A stretch of 64,000 nt of DNA, taken from a virus. A model generated the notes under the pieces. The model did no database searches. It had not been told where the DNA came from and was given only the letters and a program-made list of their open reading frames with translations. How positions within the stretch are numbered: the first letter of the stretch is position 1; each line of letters starts with the position of its first letter. Position numbers and translations under genes: made by a program. Location of the stretch: IMG/VR virus record IMGVR_UViG_3300014656_000015. The stretch is one strand, 5' to 3'. Shown here one piece after another: positions 6,063 through 52,987 of the stretch.

Positions 6063-6809
6063 CTACAGCTGAGCCAGACCGCACCTTACTGCACACATCG
6101 CACAATCCGCTTCATGGTCATCCCAGACCAGTGACTCGGACCCACATCGTGGGCAAAGTGCCCGGTTCAGACCACTGTACGTCGGCCAGAGCTCCTGTAT
6201 CCTGCCCTCAGCCACCTCCGCTATCTCACGTTCGATCAAGCCCATGCGAAGCATTTCCCGCAGGAAGACAGCCTCGGCCAGCTCGGCATGCCACGGGACA
6301 ATCCTTCGCTCGAGCCGCTTTGCCGGCGTCACCGACCCCCACATCTCGTGATCGAACAGGTCCCGCTGCTCCGTCAGGAGCAGCATCAGGGCAGCGTTGT
6401 GGACCTCAGGATAGAGGTCATTGAGCGAGTGATCCAGCTTGAACCGGAGCGTGATCGCGTCGAGTATCGCGGTCTCGTACTCCTCAAAGAAGCTCAGCGG
6501 GTTGGGCTGATCCCCGAGTAGATCAGCGATGCTGACCATATACACCGTGACCGCATCGTAGAGCAGGGCCTGTTGCAACCAGGAATGTTTGGCATTAGGG
6601 CTCGGAGTATCCCGGATCCGTTGCACCTGGCGCATGACCCTGACGCTGTGCTCGGCCATCGAGTAGAACGTTCGACACTGACCACCAAATCGACAGGTCA
6701 GGGCCAGGCCATGTGCAATGTCGAACGGATCCACGAGATCGGCGTGAATCATGCTCGTATCCATCGGAAACTTCCGACCGGTGAAGGTCGGTATCCACAC
6801 ACGTCTCAT
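6063..6809 (-). CDS. HD-fold (YfbR-like deoxynucleotidase) protein with C-terminal Zn ribbon
   Basis: DIAHGLALTCRFGG, YSMAEHS, ALLYDA (HD replaced by YD), TEQRDL; C-terminal CPRC..CAMC. Confidence 0.75.
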   Translation of the reverse strand: MRRVWIPTFTGRKFPMDTSMIHADLVDPFDIAHGLALTCRFGGQCRTFYSMAEHSVRVMRQVQRIRDTPSPNAKHSWLQQALLYDAVTVYMVSIADLLGDQPNPLSFFEEYETAILDAITLRFKLDHSLNDLYPEVHNAALMLLLTEQRDLFDHEMWGSVTPAKRLERRIVPWHAELAEAVFLREMLRMGLIEREIAEVAEGRIQELWPTYSGLNRALCPRCGSESLVWDDHEADCAMCAVRCGLAQL

Positions 6810-8103: not shown

Positions 8104-8663
<560 letters not shown>

Positions 8664-8667
<4 letters not shown>

Positions 8668-8945
8668 GATTCCACCGACTCGTAGGTCGCCTCGAAGATG
8701 TCGACCGTGCACGGGTAGATCTCACCATGGACGCCTCGGACCACGTAGTCGCCTCGACAGGCAACCATGAATCCATCGAGCGTCATGATCTCCAACCACC
8801 CCTGAGGTGCGAACTGGACCGAGCCGTCGTCGCCCCAACGCTTCCCCATCGCTTCAACGATCCAGTGTGGATCGTCCAACTGATCAACATCTCCAGTCCA
8901 CAGGAACGCTTCGACGACCACCGGCTTTTTTCGGTATTTCATCAT
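8664..8945 (-). CDS. conserved phage protein (KYRKKPVVVEA / GDY family)
   Basis: MKYRKKPVVVEA...TLDG...GDYVVRGVHGEIYPC..DIFEATYE signature. Confidence 0.85.
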
Positions 8946-9877: not shown

Positions 9878-10143
9878 CCTCTCCCTCCTTCACCGGCACC
9901 AACAGATCCTCAGCGACATGCACGAAGACCTGACCGCGCCGAGATGGAGTGCCGCTCCGCAACAATCTCCGCTGCACATCCTCCACCAGATGCGCACCGT
10001 AGGCCCGGAACTGACCAACGTGGGTGCCCCGCAACCAGACTCGCTGCCCCGGATACGCCTCGGACCACGGGAGCGCCCGCCAGTCCGACTCCTCATAAAT
10101 GTCTGACATGACTCTCCTTTCCACCTCAATTGGTGCGCCAGGG

Positions 10144-10180
10144 GCCTTATAACAAAAAGTGGCGGATCTCGTTATAAGGC
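10144..10180. promoter_or_regulatory. back-to-back GTTATAAG promoters
   Basis: GCCTTATAAC-17nt-GTTATAAGGC perfect inverted pair at the strand switch. Confidence 0.65.
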
Positions 10181-10239
10181 TCATGTAATCCGGAATTAGC
10201 CGGATTCATTGGCATGTACCACCAACAAAGGAGACAGAC

Positions 10240-11106
10240 ATGCCACGACAGAAGCAGGAGCCCAAGGAGCGGGCCCCGAAGCCACAGTGGCCCCAGGGTC
10301 CGGAGGACCTGCTCGACATCCTCAAGCGGAGGAATCGAGACATCTACGTTGAATTCGAGGTGGCCTGTGACGTCATCTCGAAGATCGTCGGGGGCACACC
10401 CAGATTGCTCGAGGCCATCTTCGCCCTGATCGACACCAGGGTGAAGCAGGGCAAGCTCAGCCCCGAGGAGGGGGAGCGGATCAAACTCGAGGTGCGGAAG
10501 CAGCACGAGGAGAAGGACAAGGCGAACCGGCTCCTCTACGAGGCTGAGATGGTGGCACGGGAGAACACGGGGGAGGACGTGGACCCGGAGAACCTACCCA
10601 CTAGCGCCCGCGCCATCGAGGCGAGCTGGAACACGTTCTGGCAGGACCCGATGGGTCTCTACCTGGAGACCCGAACCATCAAGAGCACGTTGCGGGACGT
10701 GTTCAGCGCCCTGCAGAAGTTCACGCCGGCGAACCGGAAGAAGGTCGGGCACAACTTCGGGCTCTACATCGAGGCCCCACCGGAGTCCCCGCACCGGGAC
10801 CGGGTCTACCTCTACCGGGGCGGAAGCGTGATCCAGAGGCCCGACACGTTCGAGGACAGGCCCGTCCTCATCAAGGGGGAGCACCCTCGAACCGCGCTGA
10901 AGCGCAACGACGTGATCTACGGCAAGGAGGAGGGAGAGGGATACGGCTGCCAGTTCGGCTTCAAGGTGAAGGTGCTCCGGGATGGCCCCCTGACCCACGA
11001 GGACATCGTGGACGGGCTCGCGCTCCTCATGGACCGCGGCCTGGGGGCGGCCGTTTCCCAGGGAAACGGGAAATGGGAGCCGCTGCACTTCCAGCGGCTC
11101 GGTTGA
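10240..11106 (+). CDS. stand-alone RAMP / Cas7 (Csm3-like) family protein
   Basis: N-terminal strand and IVGGTP; LYLETRTIKSTLRD (compare IPGSSLKGxLR); C-terminal G-rich loop GLGAAVSQGNGKW; no other cas genes in the window. Confidence 0.75.
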   Translation: MPRQKQEPKERAPKPQWPQGPEDLLDILKRRNRDIYVEFEVACDVISKIVGGTPRLLEAIFALIDTRVKQGKLSPEEGERIKLEVRKQHEEKDKANRLLYEAEMVARENTGEDVDPENLPTSARAIEASWNTFWQDPMGLYLETRTIKSTLRDVFSALQKFTPANRKKVGHNFGLYIEAPPESPHRDRVYLYRGGSVIQRPDTFEDRPVLIKGEHPRTALKRNDVIYGKEEGEGYGCQFGFKVKVLRDGPLTHEDIVDGLALLMDRGLGAAVSQGNGKWEPLHFQRLG

Positions 11107-11630
11107 TCGAAACCAGATCTGGATGACAATCTAAGCTAACCTAATCTGATCTGCTGACGATCTTGCCCGCTCAAGACGTTTCTGGCCGGATGACCCCCTA
11201 GGCCGAGCCGAGCCAAGACGTCCCACGACAAACTGCTGACGTACTCAACGGAACCTCGCTGGACTCGTCCCTGGTCACCGACAAACCGCTACCGACTCAA
11301 CGAACCACACACAATCCATACACACCGCTGCTGGTGACTGACGATCCGATGCGATCACAGGTGACAACCTCGACCGATCTCTGCACAGCATGGCCTCAGG
11401 TCATCGACTCGCCGCCCCACGCCACCCGAGTCGGGTCAAGGGAATCCTGCCGATTCTCTGCTCGGAGCGGAACCACGCACGGGCTTCTGACTCGCCACCC
11501 CGAGACACTCCTGGCGGCCCAACACACTGCCGACGCACCGCTCCGCGCTATGCACGGACACGCCTGGCTTCTGACATGCCACGCCGCTCCGCGCAGAACT
11601 CACGCCAACTAGGACCAGACAAACCCCACC
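11107..11630 (+). ncRNA. putative guide-RNA array of 5-nt periodic units separated by YGAC
   Basis: C at every fifth base within units, e.g. ctaag ctaac ctaat ctgat ctgct; cttgc ccgct caaga cgttt ctggc cggat. The phase resets after each YGAC+3 nt. No credible ORF or RBS. Confidence 0.65.
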
Positions 11631-11660
11631 ACGAGGAACCATTCTGGTTCCTCGTCTTAG
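11631..11660 (+). terminator. hairpin + CTTAG closing the RAMP/array unit
   Basis: Perfect 11-bp stem ACGAGGAACCA-ttc-TGGTTCCTCGT, then CTTAG. Confidence 0.7.
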
Positions 11661-11712
11661 CTATCTAAGGGAAGTGGCTCGGAGGTGAGCCGGGAATAGA
11701 AGGCTGGAGGGA

Positions 11713-16315: not shown

Positions 16316-16680
16316 GGTGGACCCAAGGGGAATCGAACCCCTGTCCAGACAGATTCAGGCGGTAGGCTCTACGTGCGTAGAGCTGGATCAATCTTGAGAC
16401 CGATGAGCTCCAGCCCGGCTCGCCGGTCCCCAGGTGCGGATGAAGCCCCGCGGTACGCAGATGAAGTCAGCACCAACCACTCCATCACCGCGGTCCACTC
16501 AATGACGCCCAGATCCAGGCCGTGGCACTCCTGGTTGGACGGGCACCTATGCCGCGAGGCGCAGTGCCGGATAATCGTCACGGTTGGCGATTGAGTTTTC
16601 GTCGTAGGGATCATGGGGTCCACGACACCCCCAGCACGCTCCCACAGCCATCCTCTACCTGTCGAAACCAATTTGGGCCC
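16316..16680 (-). ncRNA. ssrA: tmRNA (SsrA), ~365 nt, tag ANRDDYPALRLAA*
   Basis: 5' GGGCCCA..TTCGAC; 3' T-arm GGGGTTCGATTCCCC then TGGGTCCACC; G3:U70 alanine pair; tag frame 16588-16547 ends in LAA-TAG. Confidence 0.95.
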
Positions 16681-28364: not shown

Positions 28365-29001
28365 CTCACCCTCCTCTGTTCCGGGACAACGCCTCCCGGA
28401 TAGCCTCCGCGATCAATCGACGCAGCTCGCGCATAGACGCACCGCGCGGCGCCAGCAGCCCTCCGGGGAGGGTACGGAGCCACGCCTTGACCACCTTGTC
28501 CGCCAGACCATCGGGATCCGGCAAGTAGTCCGAGGCCCGCAACCCCTTCTTCGGATCCAGCTCCTTGCTACTGACTGTCCCCACTATCATGGGCACCTCC
28601 TTCGTTACCAGTACACCGCTTATACCTGACTAAGGGAGAAATCCCCGGTACAGGCTGGTAGGGTACCGGGGATCGAAGGACTAGCCTCGGATGGGCTCGA
28701 GCGGCTGGAAGCGGTCCGGGGACCGCCAGGCCTCTAGCTGCAGCGCGGCCGTGACCCGCTCCACGAACCCGTGCAGGTCCGGGTCCTTCGGGCTCATGTA
28801 GAGCCCGGGACCCGACACGGACACCTGCACCTCGCACCGCTTCCCCAGGAGCCGCCTCCTCAACTCCTGCTCGAAAAGCGACACCGTGTTCGGGGGCAGA
28901 ACGCCAGGGTTCACGACCACGCGTACACCACGATCCTCCATCCCACTCTCCTTTCCATACCGGTAGTGGTTCGATACCGGTCTCGGAGAGCTTATATCGG
29001 A

Positions 29002-29457
29002 TCAAGTGGGGAACTTGCTCCGGAACCTCGCGCAGCCATCCTCCTTCCCCGCCGGCTTCTCGTACCGTGGGGAGTCGACCAGGCCACACTTCCAGGGTCC
29101 ATCGCGGTCGTCGAGGTGTGCACAGTGGAAGCAGGAAGGTTTCACATGAAACGCGAAGACCTCGTGTGTGCTCCCATCCAGATCCATGACCTGGATCGGG
29201 TTGAGGCGGAATAGGCCGCCACCGGCATAGTTGCAGGGACGGTGGGTACCCGACACATCGGACCTCTCCACCACTGTACCGAGCCACCGACCCACACAGC
29301 TGAAGGCCACCGCGTTATCCGGGGCGCCGGCGTCGGGCCAGTCCTGCGCCCGAGCCACGTGACCGCAGACCGGACAGACGAACTCCCACTGTCGCCGGTC
29401 CTCCCCGAAGAGCCGGATGCCCAGCTCCTCCCACTCCTCACGTTCCATCGTGATCAT
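29002..29457 (-). CDS. VVA0879-like phage protein
   Basis: WEFVCPVCGH...FSCVGR...CNYAGGGLF. Confidence 0.75.
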   Translation of the reverse strand: MITMEREEWEELGIRLFGEDRRQWEFVCPVCGHVARAQDWPDAGAPDNAVAFSCVGRWLGTVVERSDVSGTHRPCNYAGGGLFRLNPIQVMDLDGSTHEVFAFHVKPSCFHCAHLDDRDGPWKCGLVDSPRYEKPAGKEDGCARFRSKFPT

Positions 29458-32045: not shown

Positions 32046-32495
32046 CTATCGTTCATCCCTGTCCTCCTCCCCTCTCAGCCGCACGTAAGCGGCGACGGCG
32101 GCACGCATGGCGTCCCAGGCCGTTGGTGACTCGCCATCAGCATCCTGCTCAAAGACTAGGCCATCGACGTACCATGTCCACTGCGATCCACTCCGATACA
32201 CTTTGATGTTCCACCCGGCCAGCGAATCGGCAAGCACCCACCGTTTGTGCGGGAAATCTTGCCACTCCCACCCATCGACCTCACCCCCGGTCTCGGCCGC
32301 GAGCCTGATCCGCAGATCGGCGACCTCGACCCACAGGCTATGGAGGACAGTCTCACAACGGCACGCGAGACAGGGGTCAAGCGCATCAGCATCACAGTCG
32401 CACCCGTAGTCCTGGAGCAGGCCCAAAACAAGCGCTAACTGGGTCGGATTACCCTCAGCGTCACACTGTCTGATCATCTCGTTCCATTCACTCAT
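32046..32495 (-). CDS. hypothetical protein, paralog of 31192-31755
   Basis: Same shared domain boundaries. Confidence 0.65.
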   Translation of the reverse strand: MSEWNEMIRQCDAEGNPTQLALVLGLLQDYGCDCDADALDPCLACRCETVLHSLWVEVADLRIRLAAETGGEVDGWEWQDFPHKRWVLADSLAGWNIKVYRSGSQWTWYVDGLVFEQDADGESPTAWDAMRAAVAAYVRLRGEEDRDER

Positions 32496-32883
32496 CACGG
32501 CCTTCTTTCTCCCTCTGCAGCGTCTTGCTCGGACCCATGTCCTCCAGTACCTGCTCCGCGAGATGCTCCCGCGCGGCGAGGTGGCTCTGGTCATCGATCC
32601 CGAGCACCCAACGACCGATCGGACACGCGCTCGACAGGTAGCTGTGGTCGCGGCACTGCTGCGGTCTCCGCTCATAGATGCCGCAGAACACGAATGCGGC
32701 CGAGCCTCGCCGAGCCTCGACGATGTGCGGGCACGGCATCGTCTCGGGATCCGTGACGAGTGGACTCATACGTCGGCAACAATCACCGCAATGGAGACAA
32801 ACCATGTTCTCGGACCTCCAATCCTCCTTTTCATCCCGCGAGATTCGCTTCAACCGACTGTGGCAATGACCCCTGGTCTCCAC
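32488..32883 (-). CDS. YkgJ-like CxxCxxCC protein
   Basis: CLHCGDCC...CGIYERRPQQCR. Confidence 0.75.
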   Translation of the reverse strand: METRGHCHSRLKRISRDEKEDWRSENMVCLHCGDCCRRMSPLVTDPETMPCPHIVEARRGSAAFVFCGIYERRPQQCRDHSYLSSACPIGRWVLGIDDQSHLAAREHLAEQVLEDMGPSKTLQREKEGRDE

Positions 32884-33341: not shown

Positions 33342-35348
33342 TTAGAACGTGATGTTGATGGTGCGGGTAAACGCACCGGAGACCTTGGCATAGACATTGT
33401 TGCGCTGGGTCGAGCTGAAGCCCAACCCGCTGAGCTGCTCCCCCTCCTCCTCGGTTCGCATCCGATCCCCGAGGAGCTCGAAGACCTTGCGGTGCTCCCG
33501 CAAGTCATCGGAGAGGTACTCGTTGAAGAAGCCCCTCGAGCTGCCGTCCCGCCGGCACCCCTTGAGCATGAAGAACCAGTGTCGATTCCCCGTCGGCTTC
33601 CCATCCCAGTGATTCGGAGACAGCATGATCATCTGGACCGGGTGGAAACTCTGCGTCGGCAGACCCCACAGCTCCTTCATAACGGTCCGCATGGGGAGGG
33701 ATTCGACGATCCGGATCCCGTCTGCCTCGGTGTAGGTGAAACTGGCCACCCGCACCGTCTCCTTTGGCTTGACCTCACGATCACAGGCAAAGGTGGTCAG
33801 CACACCGTCGAACTCGAGCTCGACCTCGAACCCGACGTCGATCCGCTCCCGATGCGTGAAGTTGTGGACGCAGAGCCGGTACGTACCGGACCTCATCATG
33901 CTTCGCTTGGCGTAGGTGATGTTCTCGACCGCGTTCCTCGAGGTGTTCGGACCAGAGGCCATCACGTTCATGTCCACATCGAGCTCACCCCCAGTGGGAG
34001 ATCTCCTAGTACAGTACGAGATCTCGTAGCCACGGGGCTCCACGAGATGTAGATCCAGATCATCACTGTTGAACCAGGCCAGGGAGGCCCGGAAGTCCCC
34101 GGTCACGTCTCCCCCACGAGCCTTGACCCGCTCCTTGATCGAGTCCGCCAGGTCACCCCGATAGGTCCAGGAGAAGTTGTTGGGCCACTTGAAGAGATGC
34201 TTGGCCTCGGGATCGACGGGCGCGACCAGGTTGACCAGGCTGCCACCGTGCCGATTCTCCAGGAGGAGCTCGACCGACGTCGTCTTCGGGAGGATGTCCT
34301 GGATGAAGGACTCGATTGGGACAGCCTCGACCTTCTCCAGGCTCTTCGGGCTCTCCACAGTCCTGGAGATGAGCTCGTCGAAAACGTCGGCACCCAAGGA
34401 CAGCCTGGCGTCCCGATTGGCAAAGAGCACGTTGTTGATCGAGATGTCCGCCATCCGAGCGAAGCGGCGGCCGAGGGCGGAGCCGTAGCCCAGCTCCTCC
34501 ACCGCTTTGCGGGCCCGCTCGACCATGGCCTTGGTGACCAACGCCTTGGGCCGCCGGTAGTTCTGCGGAGCCACCTTGGCCTCAAACATGCGGACCGCCT
34601 CATCCAGGGTCTTGTCTTCAGACAGGTCCACCAGAAGCGTCCCGATGGCGCTGTTACGGATATGGGTGACGGCTGGGTGCAGGTCCTGGCGCCAGGTGAA
34701 GAACTCTCTCCATCTTTCCTCGTTGAGTCGAGCATAGGCATGCTTCACCTCGAGGAAGAGCCGGAGCACTGGTTTATGCTCCTCCCCCCGATACAACGAG
34801 CCCTGCTCGATGAGCTCGATCACGGTCTCGATGCTGTCGATGCTGATCTCCTCCAGGGCTCGGGCAAAGACGTCCCGTTGCGACCTCTTGTCAGCAAGGA
34901 CCGGGCCCCGGTCCTTGACGACGCAGTGCTGCGGCAGGACAAGGTGAAAGTGCTCCCAGGTCAGCACCTCCCCATCGACCTCCTGGTAATTCTTGTCCAC
35001 CCCAACAACCCGCTGGTCATGGAGCAGGACATTCTCGATGGGCGCGGACCGGACAAGCTCACTCATCGCTGCCGCCACCCTATCGTAGGGGTGGCCGACC
35101 TTGCAGTCCCAGATCGACACCAGTCTATTGTCGATCACGGCGACCAGGCTCCCCACGGCCCGGATGAAGGACCTGCACGCCTGGCAGTCATGCTCGGTCC
35201 GCTCCCGCATCACCGGGTTGGTCCCGGTCGGGAAGCTATCGAGGTAGGTGCTCCAGAGCACCTCCTTCTCCACCTCGGTTCGGAAGAGCGAATGCTCCCG
35301 CATCCGCTCGAACTGGCGGCTGACCGCCGTTTTGAGCTCACTGAACAT
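33342..35348 (-). CDS. conserved large-phage protein with C-terminal YfaP/DUF2135-like domain
   Basis: HDCQACRSFI; SLAWFNSDDLDLH...GELDVDMN...AVENI. Confidence 0.8.
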   Translation of the reverse strand: MFSELKTAVSRQFERMREHSLFRTEVEKEVLWSTYLDSFPTGTNPVMRERTEHDCQACRSFIRAVGSLVAVIDNRLVSIWDCKVGHPYDRVAAAMSELVRSAPIENVLLHDQRVVGVDKNYQEVDGEVLTWEHFHLVLPQHCVVKDRGPVLADKRSQRDVFARALEEISIDSIETVIELIEQGSLYRGEEHKPVLRLFLEVKHAYARLNEERWREFFTWRQDLHPAVTHIRNSAIGTLLVDLSEDKTLDEAVRMFEAKVAPQNYRRPKALVTKAMVERARKAVEELGYGSALGRRFARMADISINNVLFANRDARLSLGADVFDELISRTVESPKSLEKVEAVPIESFIQDILPKTTSVELLLENRHGGSLVNLVAPVDPEAKHLFKWPNNFSWTYRGDLADSIKERVKARGGDVTGDFRASLAWFNSDDLDLHLVEPRGYEISYCTRRSPTGGELDVDMNVMASGPNTSRNAVENITYAKRSMMRSGTYRLCVHNFTHRERIDVGFEVELEFDGVLTTFACDREVKPKETVRVASFTYTEADGIRIVESLPMRTVMKELWGLPTQSFHPVQMIMLSPNHWDGKPTGNRHWFFMLKGCRRDGSSRGFFNEYLSDDLREHRKVFELLGDRMRTEEEGEQLSGLGFSSTQRNNVYAKVSGAFTRTINITF

Positions 35349-51612: not shown

Positions 51613-52680
51613 CTATGTCTCGATGCTCGGCCGATACTCGTCCCGAGTCATATCCCAGGTCCACGCCACGGCATCCGACGCCGTCTGCACATCAGGAGGT
51701 ACTCGAAGCAGATACCGACGCCGGATACCGTCGTGCTCCGTCGCATCGGTAACCTCGACCGCGACCAGCGGCTCGTCATCGGGCAGCTCCAACCGATAGA
51801 GGCAGCCCCGTTCGTCACGGGACACGACCCGCGCCCCGTCCAGGACTCGCTCCAGCCCGACCCTCTCGATCATGACACGCCGAATCTCAGCGTTAGACTC
51901 ACTCAACACCTCGTCTCGGGTCAGCTCGTCGGAGCACAGGATCACCCGTTCCGGTACCCGAACCCCGTGCCAAGCGTAAACACCCCAACCATCGGGGTAA
52001 CCAATAGCCAGGGCATCGGGACAGTGAAGCCGACCGCGCTCATCGAGATGGAGCGAGGTCGGCAGTGGGGTCACCACAGCAACATCGCTGCATGGCCACC
52101 ACCACCCGATCAGCGAAGCGAGCCGGATCAACCCATCCAGCGGTGAGATGTCGATCCCGCAAACCTCACCGAAATAAATATAGAATCCAAGCCAGGGCGC
52201 ATCATGCACCCCGTAGGCAACCCAATTGACCGAGTCCCAGACCACGGCCCGAACCGAGTCCAGGACCGAGCCCCAAACCGAGTCCAGGACCGAGCCCCGA
52301 ACCGAGTCCAGGACCGAGTCCAGGACCGAGTCCAGGACCGAGGCCCGGACCGAGGCCCGGACCGAGCCCCGGACCGAGTCCAGGACCGAGGCCCGGACCG
52401 AGGCCCGGACCGAGGCCAGGACCGAGGCCAGGACCGAGGCCCGGACCGAGAAGCTACGGAGCACTACGGTACAAAGCACACCGGCCATCGGCGATGTGCT
52501 CTTCACTATCTGTGTCGGAGGCAGTAGGCCACCGGCCCGGTAGGCAGCGTTGATCGCTGGGCGAACCCGACGCAGGTCGATTCGACCGTCTCCCGTCGCT
52601 AGGCCGATCCGGGTCCAACGCTCGGCATAGACCGGCAGGAGCGCCTCCTGCTCAGAAGTCAGTGCCTCAATCCGCGACAC
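51613..52680 (-). CDS. DUF6745-like protein with SVxx tetrapeptide repeats
   Basis: LTSEQEALL; GWWWP...LHCPDALAI.YPDGWGVYAWHGVRVP; NAEIRRVMIE; LRVPP...AVAWT. Confidence 0.8.
   Translation of the reverse strand: MSRIEALTSEQEALLPVYAERWTRIGLATGDGRIDLRRVRPAINAAYRAGGLLPPTQIVKSTSPMAGVLCTVVLRSFSVRASVLASVLASVRASVRASVLDSVRGSVRASVRASVLDSVLDSVLDSVRGSVLDSVWGSVLDSVRAVVWDSVNWVAYGVHDAPWLGFYIYFGEVCGIDISPLDGLIRLASLIGWWWPCSDVAVVTPLPTSLHLDERGRLHCPDALAIGYPDGWGVYAWHGVRVPERVILCSDELTRDEVLSESNAEIRRVMIERVGLERVLDGARVVSRDERGCLYRLELPDDEPLVAVEVTDATEHDGIRRRYLLRVPPDVQTASDAVAWTWDMTRDEYRPSIET
52228..52449 (-). repeat. 12-nt tandem repeat (~18 units: SVRA/SVLD/SVRG)
   Basis: Visible directly as ggaccgag(t/g/c)cc units. Confidence 0.95.
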
Positions 52681-52987
52681 GACGAAGCTCCGTGGGGTGA
52701 TACTCCCGCTGCCGCACCACCCGGTACAGGCCCGGATCGAGGTCGATCCAGGCGTGCTCCTCATGCTCCAGCCGCGTTGCCTCACGCACCCGAAGCAGCA
52801 TTGCGGCCTGCGCGACGTAGAGCGCCGCCGCGATGGCGGGGACCGCATGGGCGTGCCCCGTCGCCTCGCCCTCCGCGAGAATCAGCCGGCCACGCCCGTC
52901 CGGCTCGACCTCGGTGTACTCCTCGGACATCTCGCTCTCGTCCATCCGGACAAGCAGCACGTCTCCCTGTCTCACCTGCTTCATCAT
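52667..52987 (-). CDS. conserved partner of DUF6745-like proteins
   Basis: RQGDVLL...LAEGEATGHAH...HEEH...PGLYRVVRQREY...RRVAD. Confidence 0.85.
   Translation of the reverse strand: MMKQVRQGDVLLVRMDESEMSEEYTEVEPDGRGRLILAEGEATGHAHAVPAIAAALYVAQAAMLLRVREATRLEHEEHAWIDLDPGLYRVVRQREYHPTELRRVAD

What the first reader, a model, noticed from the sequence alone, without database searches (positions are those of the whole stretch)
10140..11660. Lone Cas7/RAMP-like gene plus a periodic non-coding array: candidate non-CRISPR RNA-guided system
Seen: a self-contained plus-strand unit among minus-strand genes, consisting of promoter, 288-aa ORF, a ~520-nt periodic array starting right at the stop codon, and hairpin+CTTAG. 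No cas1/2/5/6/8/10 genes or CRISPR repeats are in the window. Established: a C-terminal GLGxxxSxGxG loop and an IKxxLR helix are RAMP/Cas7 hallmarks, and Cas7 polymerises along guide RNA with fixed periodicity. Inference: the protein coats RNAs cut from the array, one subunit per pentamer. The fixed C would act as the anchor and the variable bases would read a target discontinuously, e.g. to repress host or rival-phage genes. From memory this resembles phage VIPR-type loci (RAMP plus GGY-NN pentamers), but the sense strand here is C-anchored with YGAC punctuation, so it may be a distinct type.
Basis: partly seen in the sequence, partly recalled or inferred. Interest (0 to 1): 0.92.

Follow-up and report, generated by a model that had tools for sequence, protein, structure and literature searches.

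The report
Phage VIPR-type RAMP gene plus pentamer array
A giant phage carries a lone CRISPR-like RNA-binding (RAMP) gene followed by a 5-base-periodic non-coding array; it is a divergent member of the VIPR RNA-guided silencing systems described in 2026, unusual in that the array's fixed base on the gene's strand is C rather than G.

Summary
ORF 10240-11106 (288 aa) is followed by about 520 nt with a period-5 signal (z = 6.5 against shuffles, the strongest in the 64-kb window), then a hairpin and CTTAG.

- **Protein:** with a 79-sequence alignment it folds confidently (pLDDT 94.9) as a RAMP. The top 29 entries in the VIA-align list are all CRISPR RAMPs, led by Cas7, Csm3 and Cmr4 (Z about 11.5). 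Its family profile matches the published Vipr (SUSP1) family at 93.5% probability, E 2e-7.
- **Family:** all eight homologous loci with a detectable array, down to about 24% protein identity, carry a C-anchored pentamer array next to the gene on its sense strand. The SUSP1 control is G-anchored.
- **Strand:** phage-specific promoter (GKT-ATAAG) and terminator (hairpin + CTTAG) motifs bracket gene and array as one insulated plus-strand unit, here and in a related phage. That favours a sense, C-anchored guide RNA (about 60%) over an antisense GGY/NN RNA (about 30%).
- **Limits:** "YGAC punctuation" is clear in relatives but not significant in this window. No convincing target was found.

VIPR and its non-canonical repeat variants were published in 2026, so this is a new, divergent member of a known kind. 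The first-stage scan had noted this same stretch several times.

The parts
10145..10179 (.). Divergent promoter region: inverted pair CCTTATAAC / GTTATAAGG, carrying the phage-specific ATAAG motif on the minus strand (10146-10150) and the plus strand (10174-10178)
   Evidence: ATAAG occurs 28 times in the window, 19 of them in the roughly 18% of DNA that is intergenic. It usually appears as G-K-T-ATAAG, 25-110 nt upstream of a same-strand gene start. The plus copy is 66 nt before the ATG. The same divergent pair occurs in L001 at 4891(-) and 4916(+).
10187..10206 (+). Hairpin in the predicted 5' leader (AATCCGG-AATTAG-CCGGATT)
   Evidence: Read directly from the sequence. Function not tested.
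10227..10234 (+). Ribosome-binding site AAAGGAGA
   Evidence: Read from the sequence; it ends 5 nt before the ATG.
10240..11106 (+). vipr-like gene: 288-aa RAMP protein with an RRM core, helix-1 IKSTLR, thumb, C-terminal G-loop GLGAAVSQGNG, and a roughly 70-residue helical insertion (residues 57-128)
   Evidence: No Pfam or PHROG hit. The family has 87 representatives. Model pLDDT 94.9. Foldseek E 1e-6 to Cmr4, Csm3 and type VII Cas7. VIA-align Z 11.6/11.5. hhalign to the SUSP1 Vipr family: 93.5%, E 2.3e-7.
11107..11630 (+). Pentamer-periodic non-coding array, C-anchored on the plus strand; candidate vrRNA array
   Evidence: Lag-5/10 z = 6.5, top of the window. HMM anchor C = 0.68. Parse. No Rfam family. 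Sequence not conserved with L001 (48.5% identity against 45% for shuffled), although the genes are 67% identical.
11194..11273 (+). Longest in-register run: 16 pentamers
   Evidence: Phase-tracking parse.
11446..11510 (+). In-register run of 13 pentamers (r3)
   Evidence: Parse. It gives the only above-control gapped match, 21/26 at 32084, which is marginal.
11534..11598 (+). In-register run of 13 pentamers (r4)
   Evidence: Parse. It shares 21-34-nt two-copy repeats with r3 at spacings of about 80-84 nt.
11631..11660 (+). Plus-strand terminator: 11-bp hairpin followed by CTTAG
   Evidence: dG -17.5. YTTAG occurs 24 times in the window, 21 intergenic, mostly after a hairpin 30-100 nt past a same-strand gene end. 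L001 has the same at 6663(+).
11665..11691 (-). Separate minus-strand terminator (hairpin 11676-11691, then ACTTCC-CTTAG read on the minus strand) that ends the neighbouring minus-strand operon before it reaches the array
   Evidence: dG -8.8, weaker than the others. The back-to-back arrangement matches the pairs at 2905/2928 and 41088/41101 and L001's 6663(+)/6686(-).

Best explanation
This is a VIPR-family RNA-guided system (Viral Interference Programmable Repeat) carried by a large phiCbK-like phage. One insulated plus-strand transcription unit (promoter at about 10174, terminator at 11656) encodes a divergent Vipr-type RAMP protein. Its roughly 520-nt 3' region is a tail-less array of pentamer units.

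The proposed mechanism is by homology to the solved SUSP1 system. The array RNA is cut or bound in tracts of about 8-16 units, and one protein subunit binds each pentamer to form a helical filament. The fixed base is held by the G-loop, thumb and helix-1 surfaces. Here that base is C on the sense strand, or CC/YC in relatives. The variable bases are presented for non-contiguous pairing with double-stranded DNA of a competing mobile element or the host, blocking its transcription.

Shown here: the RAMP fold, homology to Vipr, the period-5 array, its conservation of architecture but not sequence across the family, its fixed polarity relative to the gene, and the strand-specific promoter and terminator motifs.

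Inferred: that the plus strand is the guide strand (my estimate about 60-65%, given that it is a VIPR system), filament formation, the non-contiguous pairing rule, and the biological target.

The confidence given (0.58) is for the whole statement including the sense-strand sub-claim. That it is a VIPR-family system on either strand I put at about 0.88.
For: - Fold: pLDDT 94.9. All top PDB matches are CRISPR RAMP backbone subunits (E 1e-6 to 1e-4; Z 11.6 type VII Cas7, 11.5 Csm3 and Cmr4; the top 29 entries are all RAMPs). In the viral library the only significant hits are three phage lone RAMPs.
- Homology to the published Vipr: profile-profile 93.5%, E 2.3e-7 over 127 columns, spanning helix-1, thumb and G-loop.
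- Array: z = 6.5, the best in the window.
- Family: the same gene-plus-array layout in 8 of 8 loci with a detectable array, down to about 24% protein identity and from 50% to 65% GC, always with C on the gene's sense strand. The SUSP1 control gives G.
- Content: array sequence is unconserved between the window and L001 while the period is kept.
- Co-variation: the G-loop Arg equivalent to SUSP1 R179 is present in 5 of 5 loci with a two-base CC/YC anchor and replaced by Val or Thr in 3 of 3 single-C loci.
- Strand: the plus promoter motif, the plus terminator and a separate minus terminator bracket the cassette in the window and in L001, with no minus-strand promoter motif in between. In L009, L010, L011 and L016 the arrays lie between co-directional plus-strand genes.
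- Context: phage, no CRISPR array or Cas domains found.
- Published mechanism.
Against: - No expression or binding data exist for this family.
- In the cleanest relatives the antisense strand reads exactly the published G-G/R-Y-N-N unit. With a homologous protein, that argues for an antisense guide.
- L005 has a strong minus-strand intrinsic terminator just upstream of its gene. That would make sense if minus-strand transcription crosses the cassette.
- The window's minus-strand terminator is weak (dG -8.8).
- The window's own array is degenerate: one anchored base, and GAC punctuation is not significant.
- No target above controls, except one marginal self-match.
- No accessory vap gene is recognisable.
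- The match to SUSP1 Vipr covers only the C-terminal 55% of the protein, and the G-contacting D177/W178 positions are not conserved.
Confidence: 0.58

Rival explanations
1. A canonical-chemistry VIPR with antisense guides. The vrRNAs are transcribed from the minus strand, so the RNA is G-anchored (NNNRG here, GGY/NN or GRY/NN in relatives), exactly as in published systems. The only peculiarity is that the vipr gene is inverted relative to its arrays.
For: The antisense strand of L010 and L009 reads GG-Y-NN or G-R-Y-NN, identical to the published unit, and the protein is homologous to Vipr. The paper lists NNNGG, YNNNG and NNNNG as alternative consensus forms. In the window, L001 and L005 the array's G strand is co-directional with all neighbouring genes. 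L005 has a minus-strand terminator upstream of vipr. A single ancestral inversion of the gene would explain the 8/8 polarity without independent events.
Against: In the window and L001 a minus-strand terminator (hairpin + CTTAG) sits between the minus-strand operon and the array. No minus-strand ATAAG promoter motif lies within or next to the array, while a plus promoter and plus terminator bracket gene plus array. In L009, L010, L011 and L016 the arrays sit between plus-strand genes, in L011 abutting the gene's RBS, so antisense transcription would need dedicated internal promoters running against the operon. The residues that read the two G's in SUSP1 (D177, W178) are Ala and a variable residue here.
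Confidence: 0.3
2. The array is not a guide store but a cis-acting or decoy element. It could be a 3'-UTR platform on which the RAMP protein polymerises to regulate its own mRNA, or an RNA or DNA sponge that titrates Vipr proteins of rival phages.
For: The window's array is degenerate and lacks clear unit boundaries or tails. No targets were found. The array is part of the gene's own transcript according to the signal motifs.
Against: Related arrays have a precise modular grammar (xGAC + NNN + (YC-NNN)k, module length 5k+3) with hypervariable non-anchor positions, as expected for guides. Array content has diverged to random between related phages, which a fixed regulatory site would not do. 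The homologous system is experimentally a programmable guide system.
Confidence: 0.08
3. The periodicity is a compositional accident of C-rich non-coding DNA next to an unrelated RNA-binding protein.
For: The tract is C-rich (38% C), and Tandem Repeats Finder does not call it.
Against: z = 6.5 against shuffles and the top of 64 kb. The same period and anchor recur next to homologs in 8 loci of very different GC content. The family link to Vipr is significant.
Confidence: 0.02

Closest known systems
VIPR type II systems (Escherichia phage SUSP1, Pseudomonas fulva prophage): Vipr + vrRNA; bioRxiv 10.64898/2026.04.26.720920 and 10.64898/2026.04.26.720927
   Same: A phage-borne lone RAMP protein with no cas genes or CRISPR array. 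The flanking intergenic DNA is made of tandem 5-nt units with fixed anchor bases and variable bases. Run lengths of 8-16 units here compare with the published 9-16. Helix-1, thumb and G-loop align at profile level.
   Different: - The protein is 288 aa against 195 aa, with a helical insertion and an N-terminal tail. Only the C-terminal 55% aligns, and D177/W178 are not conserved.
- The anchor on the gene's strand is C, not GG-Y.
- There is no conserved structured 3' tail or inter-guide spacer. In SUSP1 each ~100-nt vrRNA has a hairpin/pseudoknot tail.
- No vap gene is recognisable.
Non-canonical VIPR arrays (GAC/NN, CAC/NN, WGT/NN, TGH/NN) reported in bioRxiv 10.64898/2026.10.21.760802, and the NNNGG / YNNNG / NNNNG variants of the discovery paper
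   Same: Period-5 arrays beside Vipr-like folds whose fixed positions depart from GGY, including motifs with C at a fixed position.
   Different: The texts on hand do not list an RCC/NN or single-C unit, nor say how strand was assigned. I cannot tell whether this family is among their clusters, because the figures and tables are not held.
Staggered vrRNA arrays (fig. S18 of the discovery paper)
   Same: [quoted passage not shown] Relatives L010, L011, L009 and L016 show abutting modules of 5-7 units with a phase jump at each xGAC.
   Different: Only the legend is available. The published overlap is 1 nt, while here modules are 5k+3 nt with a GAC-containing separator. The window's own array does not show the rule significantly.
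Class 1 CRISPR backbone subunits (Cas7, Csm3, Cmr4, type VII Cas7, gRAMP domains)
   Same: Best structural matches (Z 10-11.6). They share the RRM core, G-loop and thumb, and polymerise along a guide with a fixed periodicity.
   Different: No CRISPR repeats, no Cas5, Cas6, Cas8, Cas10 or Cas1-2. The period is 5 nt rather than 6. Sequence similarity is only marginal.

Membership tests
VIPR (Vipr protein + vrRNA) | Protein with a RAMP fold: RRM core, glycine-rich loop, thumb | tested here: met
   Model pLDDT 94.9. Foldseek and VIA-align top hits are all RAMPs, Z up to 11.6. The G-loop G-L-G-x3-S-Q-G-x-G is nearly invariant in 79 sequences.
VIPR (Vipr protein + vrRNA) | Homology to the published Vipr protein family (SUSP1 / X1U2U4 clade) | tested here: met
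   hhalign of the 79-sequence family profile against a 29-sequence SUSP1-family profile: 93.5% probability, E 2.3e-7, 127 columns. A single-sequence comparison gave only 27%. The N-terminal 45% is not covered.
VIPR (Vipr protein + vrRNA) | Stand-alone or two-gene locus outside any CRISPR-Cas context, mostly in phages or proviruses | tested here: met
   Phage context. No CRISPR-like array. No Cas domains in the 20 ORFs scanned. Small ORFs were not all scanned.
VIPR (Vipr protein + vrRNA) | Adjacent intergenic tandem 5-nt repeats (at least 4 units) with fixed and hypervariable positions | tested here: met
   in the window; in 7 other loci.
VIPR (Vipr protein + vrRNA) | Repeat consensus GGY/NN, or a G-anchored relative (NNNGG, YNNNG, NNNNG), on the transcribed strand | tested here: inconclusive
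   The G-anchored reading exists only on the strand opposite the gene. Promoter and terminator motifs and neighbour orientation favour transcription of the C-anchored strand. No RNA data.
VIPR (Vipr protein + vrRNA) | Invariant structured 3' tail after each repeat tract (type II feature) | tested here: inconclusive
   No Rfam hit and no multi-copy conserved tail. There are only two-copy 21-34-nt repeats at spacings of about 80-84 nt in the distal half and one terminal hairpin. The paper itself describes tail-less staggered arrays, so the tail is not universal.
VIPR (Vipr protein + vrRNA) | Accessory vap gene (typical, not universal) | tested here: not met
   No second co-oriented gene in the cassette. 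The four neighbouring ORFs have no Pfam or PHROG match.
VIPR (Vipr protein + vrRNA) | Variable dinucleotides match natural DNA targets under the 1-nt-skip rule (at least 80%) | tested here: inconclusive
   Against the window and related loci, only one of 32 tests exceeded the unit-shuffled controls: 21/26 at 32084, per-test P about 0.001, with the skip base on codon position 2. An exact scan of viral contigs found 0 hits. The host genome is unknown and no whole genome is held.
VIPR (Vipr protein + vrRNA) | vrRNAs expressed and co-purifying with the protein; programmable repression | not testable with these tools
   Needs small-RNA sequencing, pull-down and reporter assays.
Class 1 CRISPR-Cas effector | CRISPR repeat-spacer array and partner cas genes (cas5, 6, 8, 10, cas1-2) | tested here: not met
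   No such array. No Cas domains in the scanned ORFs. The gene sits alone in a phage.

The most novel reading that the evidence does not exclude
This Vipr clade reads a mirror-polarity guide. The RNA is made from the gene's own strand and is anchored by C (a single C here, R-C-C or Y-C in relatives) instead of GG-Y. A remodelled G-loop does the reading: Ala replaces the G-reading Asp, there is an S-Q-G motif, and an Arg tracks the presence of the second anchor base. Guides are cut from a tail-less 3'-UTR array. That would show that the anchor specificity of RAMP filaments is evolvable to the complementary base, and would add a second, orthogonal scaffold for non-contiguous programmable DNA binding.
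Probability: 0.5. Interest if true: 0.62.

Novelty: new member of a known kind. Interest (0 to 1): 0.46.

Why it matters
[quoted passage not shown] This locus and its roughly 85-cluster, almost entirely viral family extend that kind to giant phiCbK-like phages. They also offer a natural experiment on the code. The same fold is paired with arrays whose fixed base on the gene's strand is the complement of the canonical one. The anchor is reduced from two bases to one in step with a G-loop substitution, and the guides have no structured tails.

If the RNA is indeed sense-strand and C-anchored, it gives an orthogonal scaffold and a handle on how RAMP proteins choose their anchor bases. If it is antisense, it shows that vipr and its arrays can be transcribed convergently. 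Either outcome is quickly testable with one strand-specific RNA experiment.

Tried and rejected
- **Direct sequence annotation.** Pfam and PHROGs give nothing for the protein. A PDB sequence-profile search gives only marginal RAMP hits (E 0.015-0.7), plus a probably spurious RNA polymerase beta-prime hit.
- **First fold.** The model from 5 sequences was too poor to use (pLDDT 56).
- **Ribozymes.** Rfam found no hammerhead or other family in the window cassette or in 7 related loci. The ribozyme-interspersed architecture, which would have fixed the strand, is absent.
- **Generic promoter and terminator scans.** The sigma-70 and intrinsic-terminator scans were uninformative in the window and L005, and not above shuffle expectation in L009.
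- **Folding-energy asymmetry as a strand indicator.** Rejected. In the SUSP1 control the known transcribed strand is the more structured one, and our arrays have z near 0 on both strands (the first attempt timed out).
- **GAC punctuation in the window.** Not significant.
- **Array variation among L001-L004.** All four are identical, the same phage resampled, so uninformative.
- **Target searches.** Eight alternative reading rules gave only one marginal hit. One exact scan of viral contigs found nothing. Longer or mismatch-tolerant public scans are not possible with the tools.
- **Data not available.** The whole genome of the window is not held. Supplementary tables of the VIPR paper are not held. 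Profile-based locus retrieval failed for the broad alignment and for genome contigs.
- **Coding explanation for the tract.** Rejected, because period 5 is incompatible with codons and no long high-GC3 ORF covers it.
Full report
**1. Observation**

The sequence is as described. ORF 10240-11106 (+) encodes 288 aa. It has the highest third-position GC in the window (0.90) and is a plus-strand exception in a window of mostly minus-strand genes.

The roughly 520 nt after its stop codon carry a period-5 signal. Lag-5 and lag-10 identity are 0.353 and 0.342, against about 0.27 at other lags. The combined score has z = 6.5 against 2000 shuffles, and the tract ranks first among all 520-nt windows of the 64 kb. 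A cyclic 5-state HMM finds one phase with C = 0.68. A phase-tracking parse gives in-register runs of 16, 8, 13 and 13 units, with 48 of 65 regular units beginning with C.

The hairpin at 11631-11655 followed by CTTAG is present. The one detail that fails is the 'YGAC punctuation'. In this window GAC is no more frequent than in dinucleotide shuffles (z = 0.2), and its spacings have no mod-5 preference.

**2. The protein**

Pfam and PHROGs are silent. An exhaustive HMMER search found 87 representatives, mostly 200-300 aa. The ESM Atlas places the protein among unannotated clusters that are 88-100% viral.

With a 79-sequence alignment, AlphaFold gives a confident model (pLDDT 94.9, pTM 0.87). Foldseek against the PDB returns only CRISPR RAMP backbone subunits at the top: Cmr4 at E 1e-6, then Csm3 and type VII Cas7. 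The independent VIA-align search of 48,161 chains gives Z 11.6 to type VII Cas7, 11.5 to Csm3 and Cmr4, and about 11 to the gRAMP/Cas7-11 domains. Its top 29 entries are all RAMPs. In the viral structure library the only significant matches are three phage-encoded lone RAMPs.

**3. What is already known**

VIPR systems are published (bioRxiv 10.64898/2026.04.26.720920). They comprise a minimal, mostly phage-borne RAMP (Vipr) and vrRNAs made of 9-16 YNNGG units plus a 3' tail. One protomer binds each unit, the GGY is sequestered, and the NN pair with dsDNA with one base skipped, silencing competing mobile elements.

The paper defines seven types. It describes alternative consensus forms (NNNGG, YNNNG, NNNNG), staggered tail-less arrays and ribozyme-interspersed arrays. 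A later preprint (10.64898/2026.10.21.760802) reports 21 clusters of Vipr-associated period-5 arrays with non-canonical cores such as GAC/NN and CAC/NN.

**4. Membership**

I located the reference locus in phage SUSP1 (KT454805.2): vipr at 28474-29061, with GGT-NN tracts on the same strand as the gene, both upstream and downstream. I then built a 29-sequence profile of that family. The profile-profile comparison with this family gives 93.5% probability and E 2.3e-7 over 127 columns, running from RRM helix-1 through the thumb to the G-loop and last strand. So the protein is a distant but genuine Vipr homolog.

The differences are notable. The protein is about 90 residues longer, with a helical insertion at 57-128. 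The SUSP1 residues that read the two guanines, D177 and W178, align to Ala and a variable residue here.

**5. The array across the family**

I collected further loci from metagenomes, IMG/VR and one isolated phage, Microcystis phage Mae-JY09. In every locus where a tract is detectable (window, L001, L005, L009, L010, L011, L015, L016), the periodic base on the gene's sense strand is C. The tract abuts the gene: downstream in seven loci, upstream in L011. SUSP1, run as a control, gives G.

The cleaner relatives reveal a grammar. An xGAC separator is followed by NNN and then 5-7 units of (CC or YC)-NNN, with module lengths of 5k+3. In L010, 11 of 15 spacings are congruent to 3 mod 5, and in L011, 8 of 13. 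In the AT-rich L009 the sense unit is N-W-G/R-Y-C.

The window's subclade keeps only one strong C. That difference tracks a G-loop change. The Arg aligned with SUSP1 R179, which holds the third anchor base, is present in 5 of 5 two-base-anchor loci and is Val or Thr in 3 of 3 single-C loci. Only two clades are involved, so this is a hint rather than proof.

Between the window and L001 the genes are 67% identical in DNA, but the arrays are at shuffled-sequence level (48.5% against 45%). The architecture is conserved and the content is not.

**6. Which strand is the RNA?**

This is the crux. The antisense of L010 and L009 reads exactly G-G/R-Y-N-N, the published unit, which favours an antisense guide. 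Against that, the phage supplies its own strand-specific signals.

- YTTAG occurs only 24 times on both strands of the window, 21 of them intergenic. Most follow a stable hairpin 30-100 nt beyond a same-strand gene end, and convergent genes have back-to-back pairs.
- ATAAG, usually as G-K-T-ATAAG, occurs 28 times, 19 of them in the 18% of DNA that is intergenic, 25-110 nt upstream of same-strand starts.

The cassette has a divergent promoter pair at 10150(-) and 10174(+). The gene and array follow, then a plus-strand terminator at 11631-11660, and then a separate minus-strand terminator at 11665-11691 that ends the neighbouring operon. No minus-strand promoter motif lies in between. L001 has the same four elements although its array is unrelated in sequence.

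In L009, L010, L011 and L016 the arrays lie between plus-strand genes.

There are counter-points. L005 has a strong minus-strand intrinsic terminator upstream of its gene, and the window's minus-strand terminator is weak.

Two tests gave no help: folding-energy asymmetry failed on the control, and no ribozymes are present.

I put about 60-65% on a sense, C-anchored RNA and about 30-35% on an antisense, G-anchored RNA, given that it is a VIPR system.

**7. Targets**

I tested eight reading rules on four runs against the window and related loci, with unit-shuffled controls. They gave one excess: run 11446-11510, positions 2-3 with a 1-nt skip, matches 21 of 26 bases at 32084. The per-test P is about 0.001 over 32 tests, and the skipped bases fall on codon position 2, not the wobble position. 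I treat it as marginal. An exact scan of viral contigs with its 10-unit core found nothing. No whole genome or host is available.

**8. Context**

The window is phage DNA. It has a full-length phrog_1735 protein that is 49% identical to those of phiCbK-like Caulobacter phages, a helicase, a C5 methylase, a tmRNA and many ORFans. The protein's cluster is recorded on a 197.6-kb contig. No CRISPR-like array and no Cas domains were found, and no vap-like neighbour.

**9. Verdict**

This is a VIPR-family system in a divergent, almost wholly viral clade. The kind and its non-canonical variants are already published, so it is a new member of a known kind. The unresolved and interesting point is the inverted polarity of the array relative to the gene, which one strand-specific RNA experiment would settle.

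Earlier first-reader notes of this scan on the same stretch gave me the leads on the ATAAG/CTTAG signals and on the grammar, and I tested both here.

Noticed in passing
window 16316-16680 (-): Phage-encoded tmRNA with tag peptide ANRDDYPALRLAA, found by ARAGORN. It fits the phiCbK-like affinity of the phage.
   Followed up: partly
window-wide, e.g. 2905(+)/2928(-), 23805(-), 28634(-), 41088(+)/41101(-), 50681(+)/50787(-), 54308(-): A phage-specific terminator style: a stable hairpin, a short pyrimidine-rich run, then CTTAG(C). 21 of 24 YTTAG occurrences are intergenic, and convergent genes carry back-to-back pairs. The invariant TTAG suggests a dedicated termination or 3'-processing signal rather than a plain intrinsic terminator.
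   Followed up: partly
window-wide, e.g. 2413(+), 10150(-)/10174(+), 23794(-), 28623(-), 40812(+), 50273(+), 54291(-), 62339(-): A phage-specific promoter-like motif, G-K-T-ATAAG, 25-110 nt upstream of gene starts. 19 of 28 ATAAG occurrences are intergenic. It is shared with the related phage L001, and several sites directly follow a CTTAG terminator.
   Followed up: partly
window 32084-32122: Gapped match (21 of 26 specified bases, 1-nt skip) to array run 11446-11510, inside a possible minus-strand ORF at 32046-32675. It is marginal after multiple-test correction, and the skip bases fall on codon position 2.
   Followed up: partly
window 52228-52450: An in-frame 24-nt (12-nt sub-period) tandem repeat, 9.3 copies at 87% match, inside the 411-aa DUF6745 protein gene 51613-52848.
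   Followed up: no
window 8183-8348: A GC-rich degenerate tandem repeat (periods 9, 12, 21 and 42) inside ORF 8104-8712. It is probably a low-complexity coding region.
   Followed up: no
window 33342-35348 (-): A 668-aa protein with a full-length match to phrog_1735 (unknown function, 865 bits). It is 49% identical to proteins of phiCbK-like Caulobacter phages, and related proteins occur in 546 phage records of many hosts. L001 carries the same family (DUF8224).
   Followed up: partly
L005 about 957-1000: A strong minus-strand intrinsic terminator (12-bp GC-rich stem, T7 tail on the minus strand, dG about -35) between the RAMP gene's start and the next minus-strand gene. This is unexpected unless minus-strand transcription crosses the cassette.
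   Followed up: partly
L009 3623-4036 and 4040-4260: In the AT-rich relative a small gene overlaps the end of the RAMP gene and is a possible vap-like partner. A TTGACA-17-TATCTT promoter-like site then precedes a roughly 180-nt GC-richer, apparently structured segment before the first array.
   Followed up: no
L001 6381 (+): A second plus-strand GGG-ATAAG-G promoter-like motif inside the post-gene non-coding region, about 280 nt before the plus-strand terminator. It suggests a separate short plus-strand transcript in the distal part of that locus.
   Followed up: no
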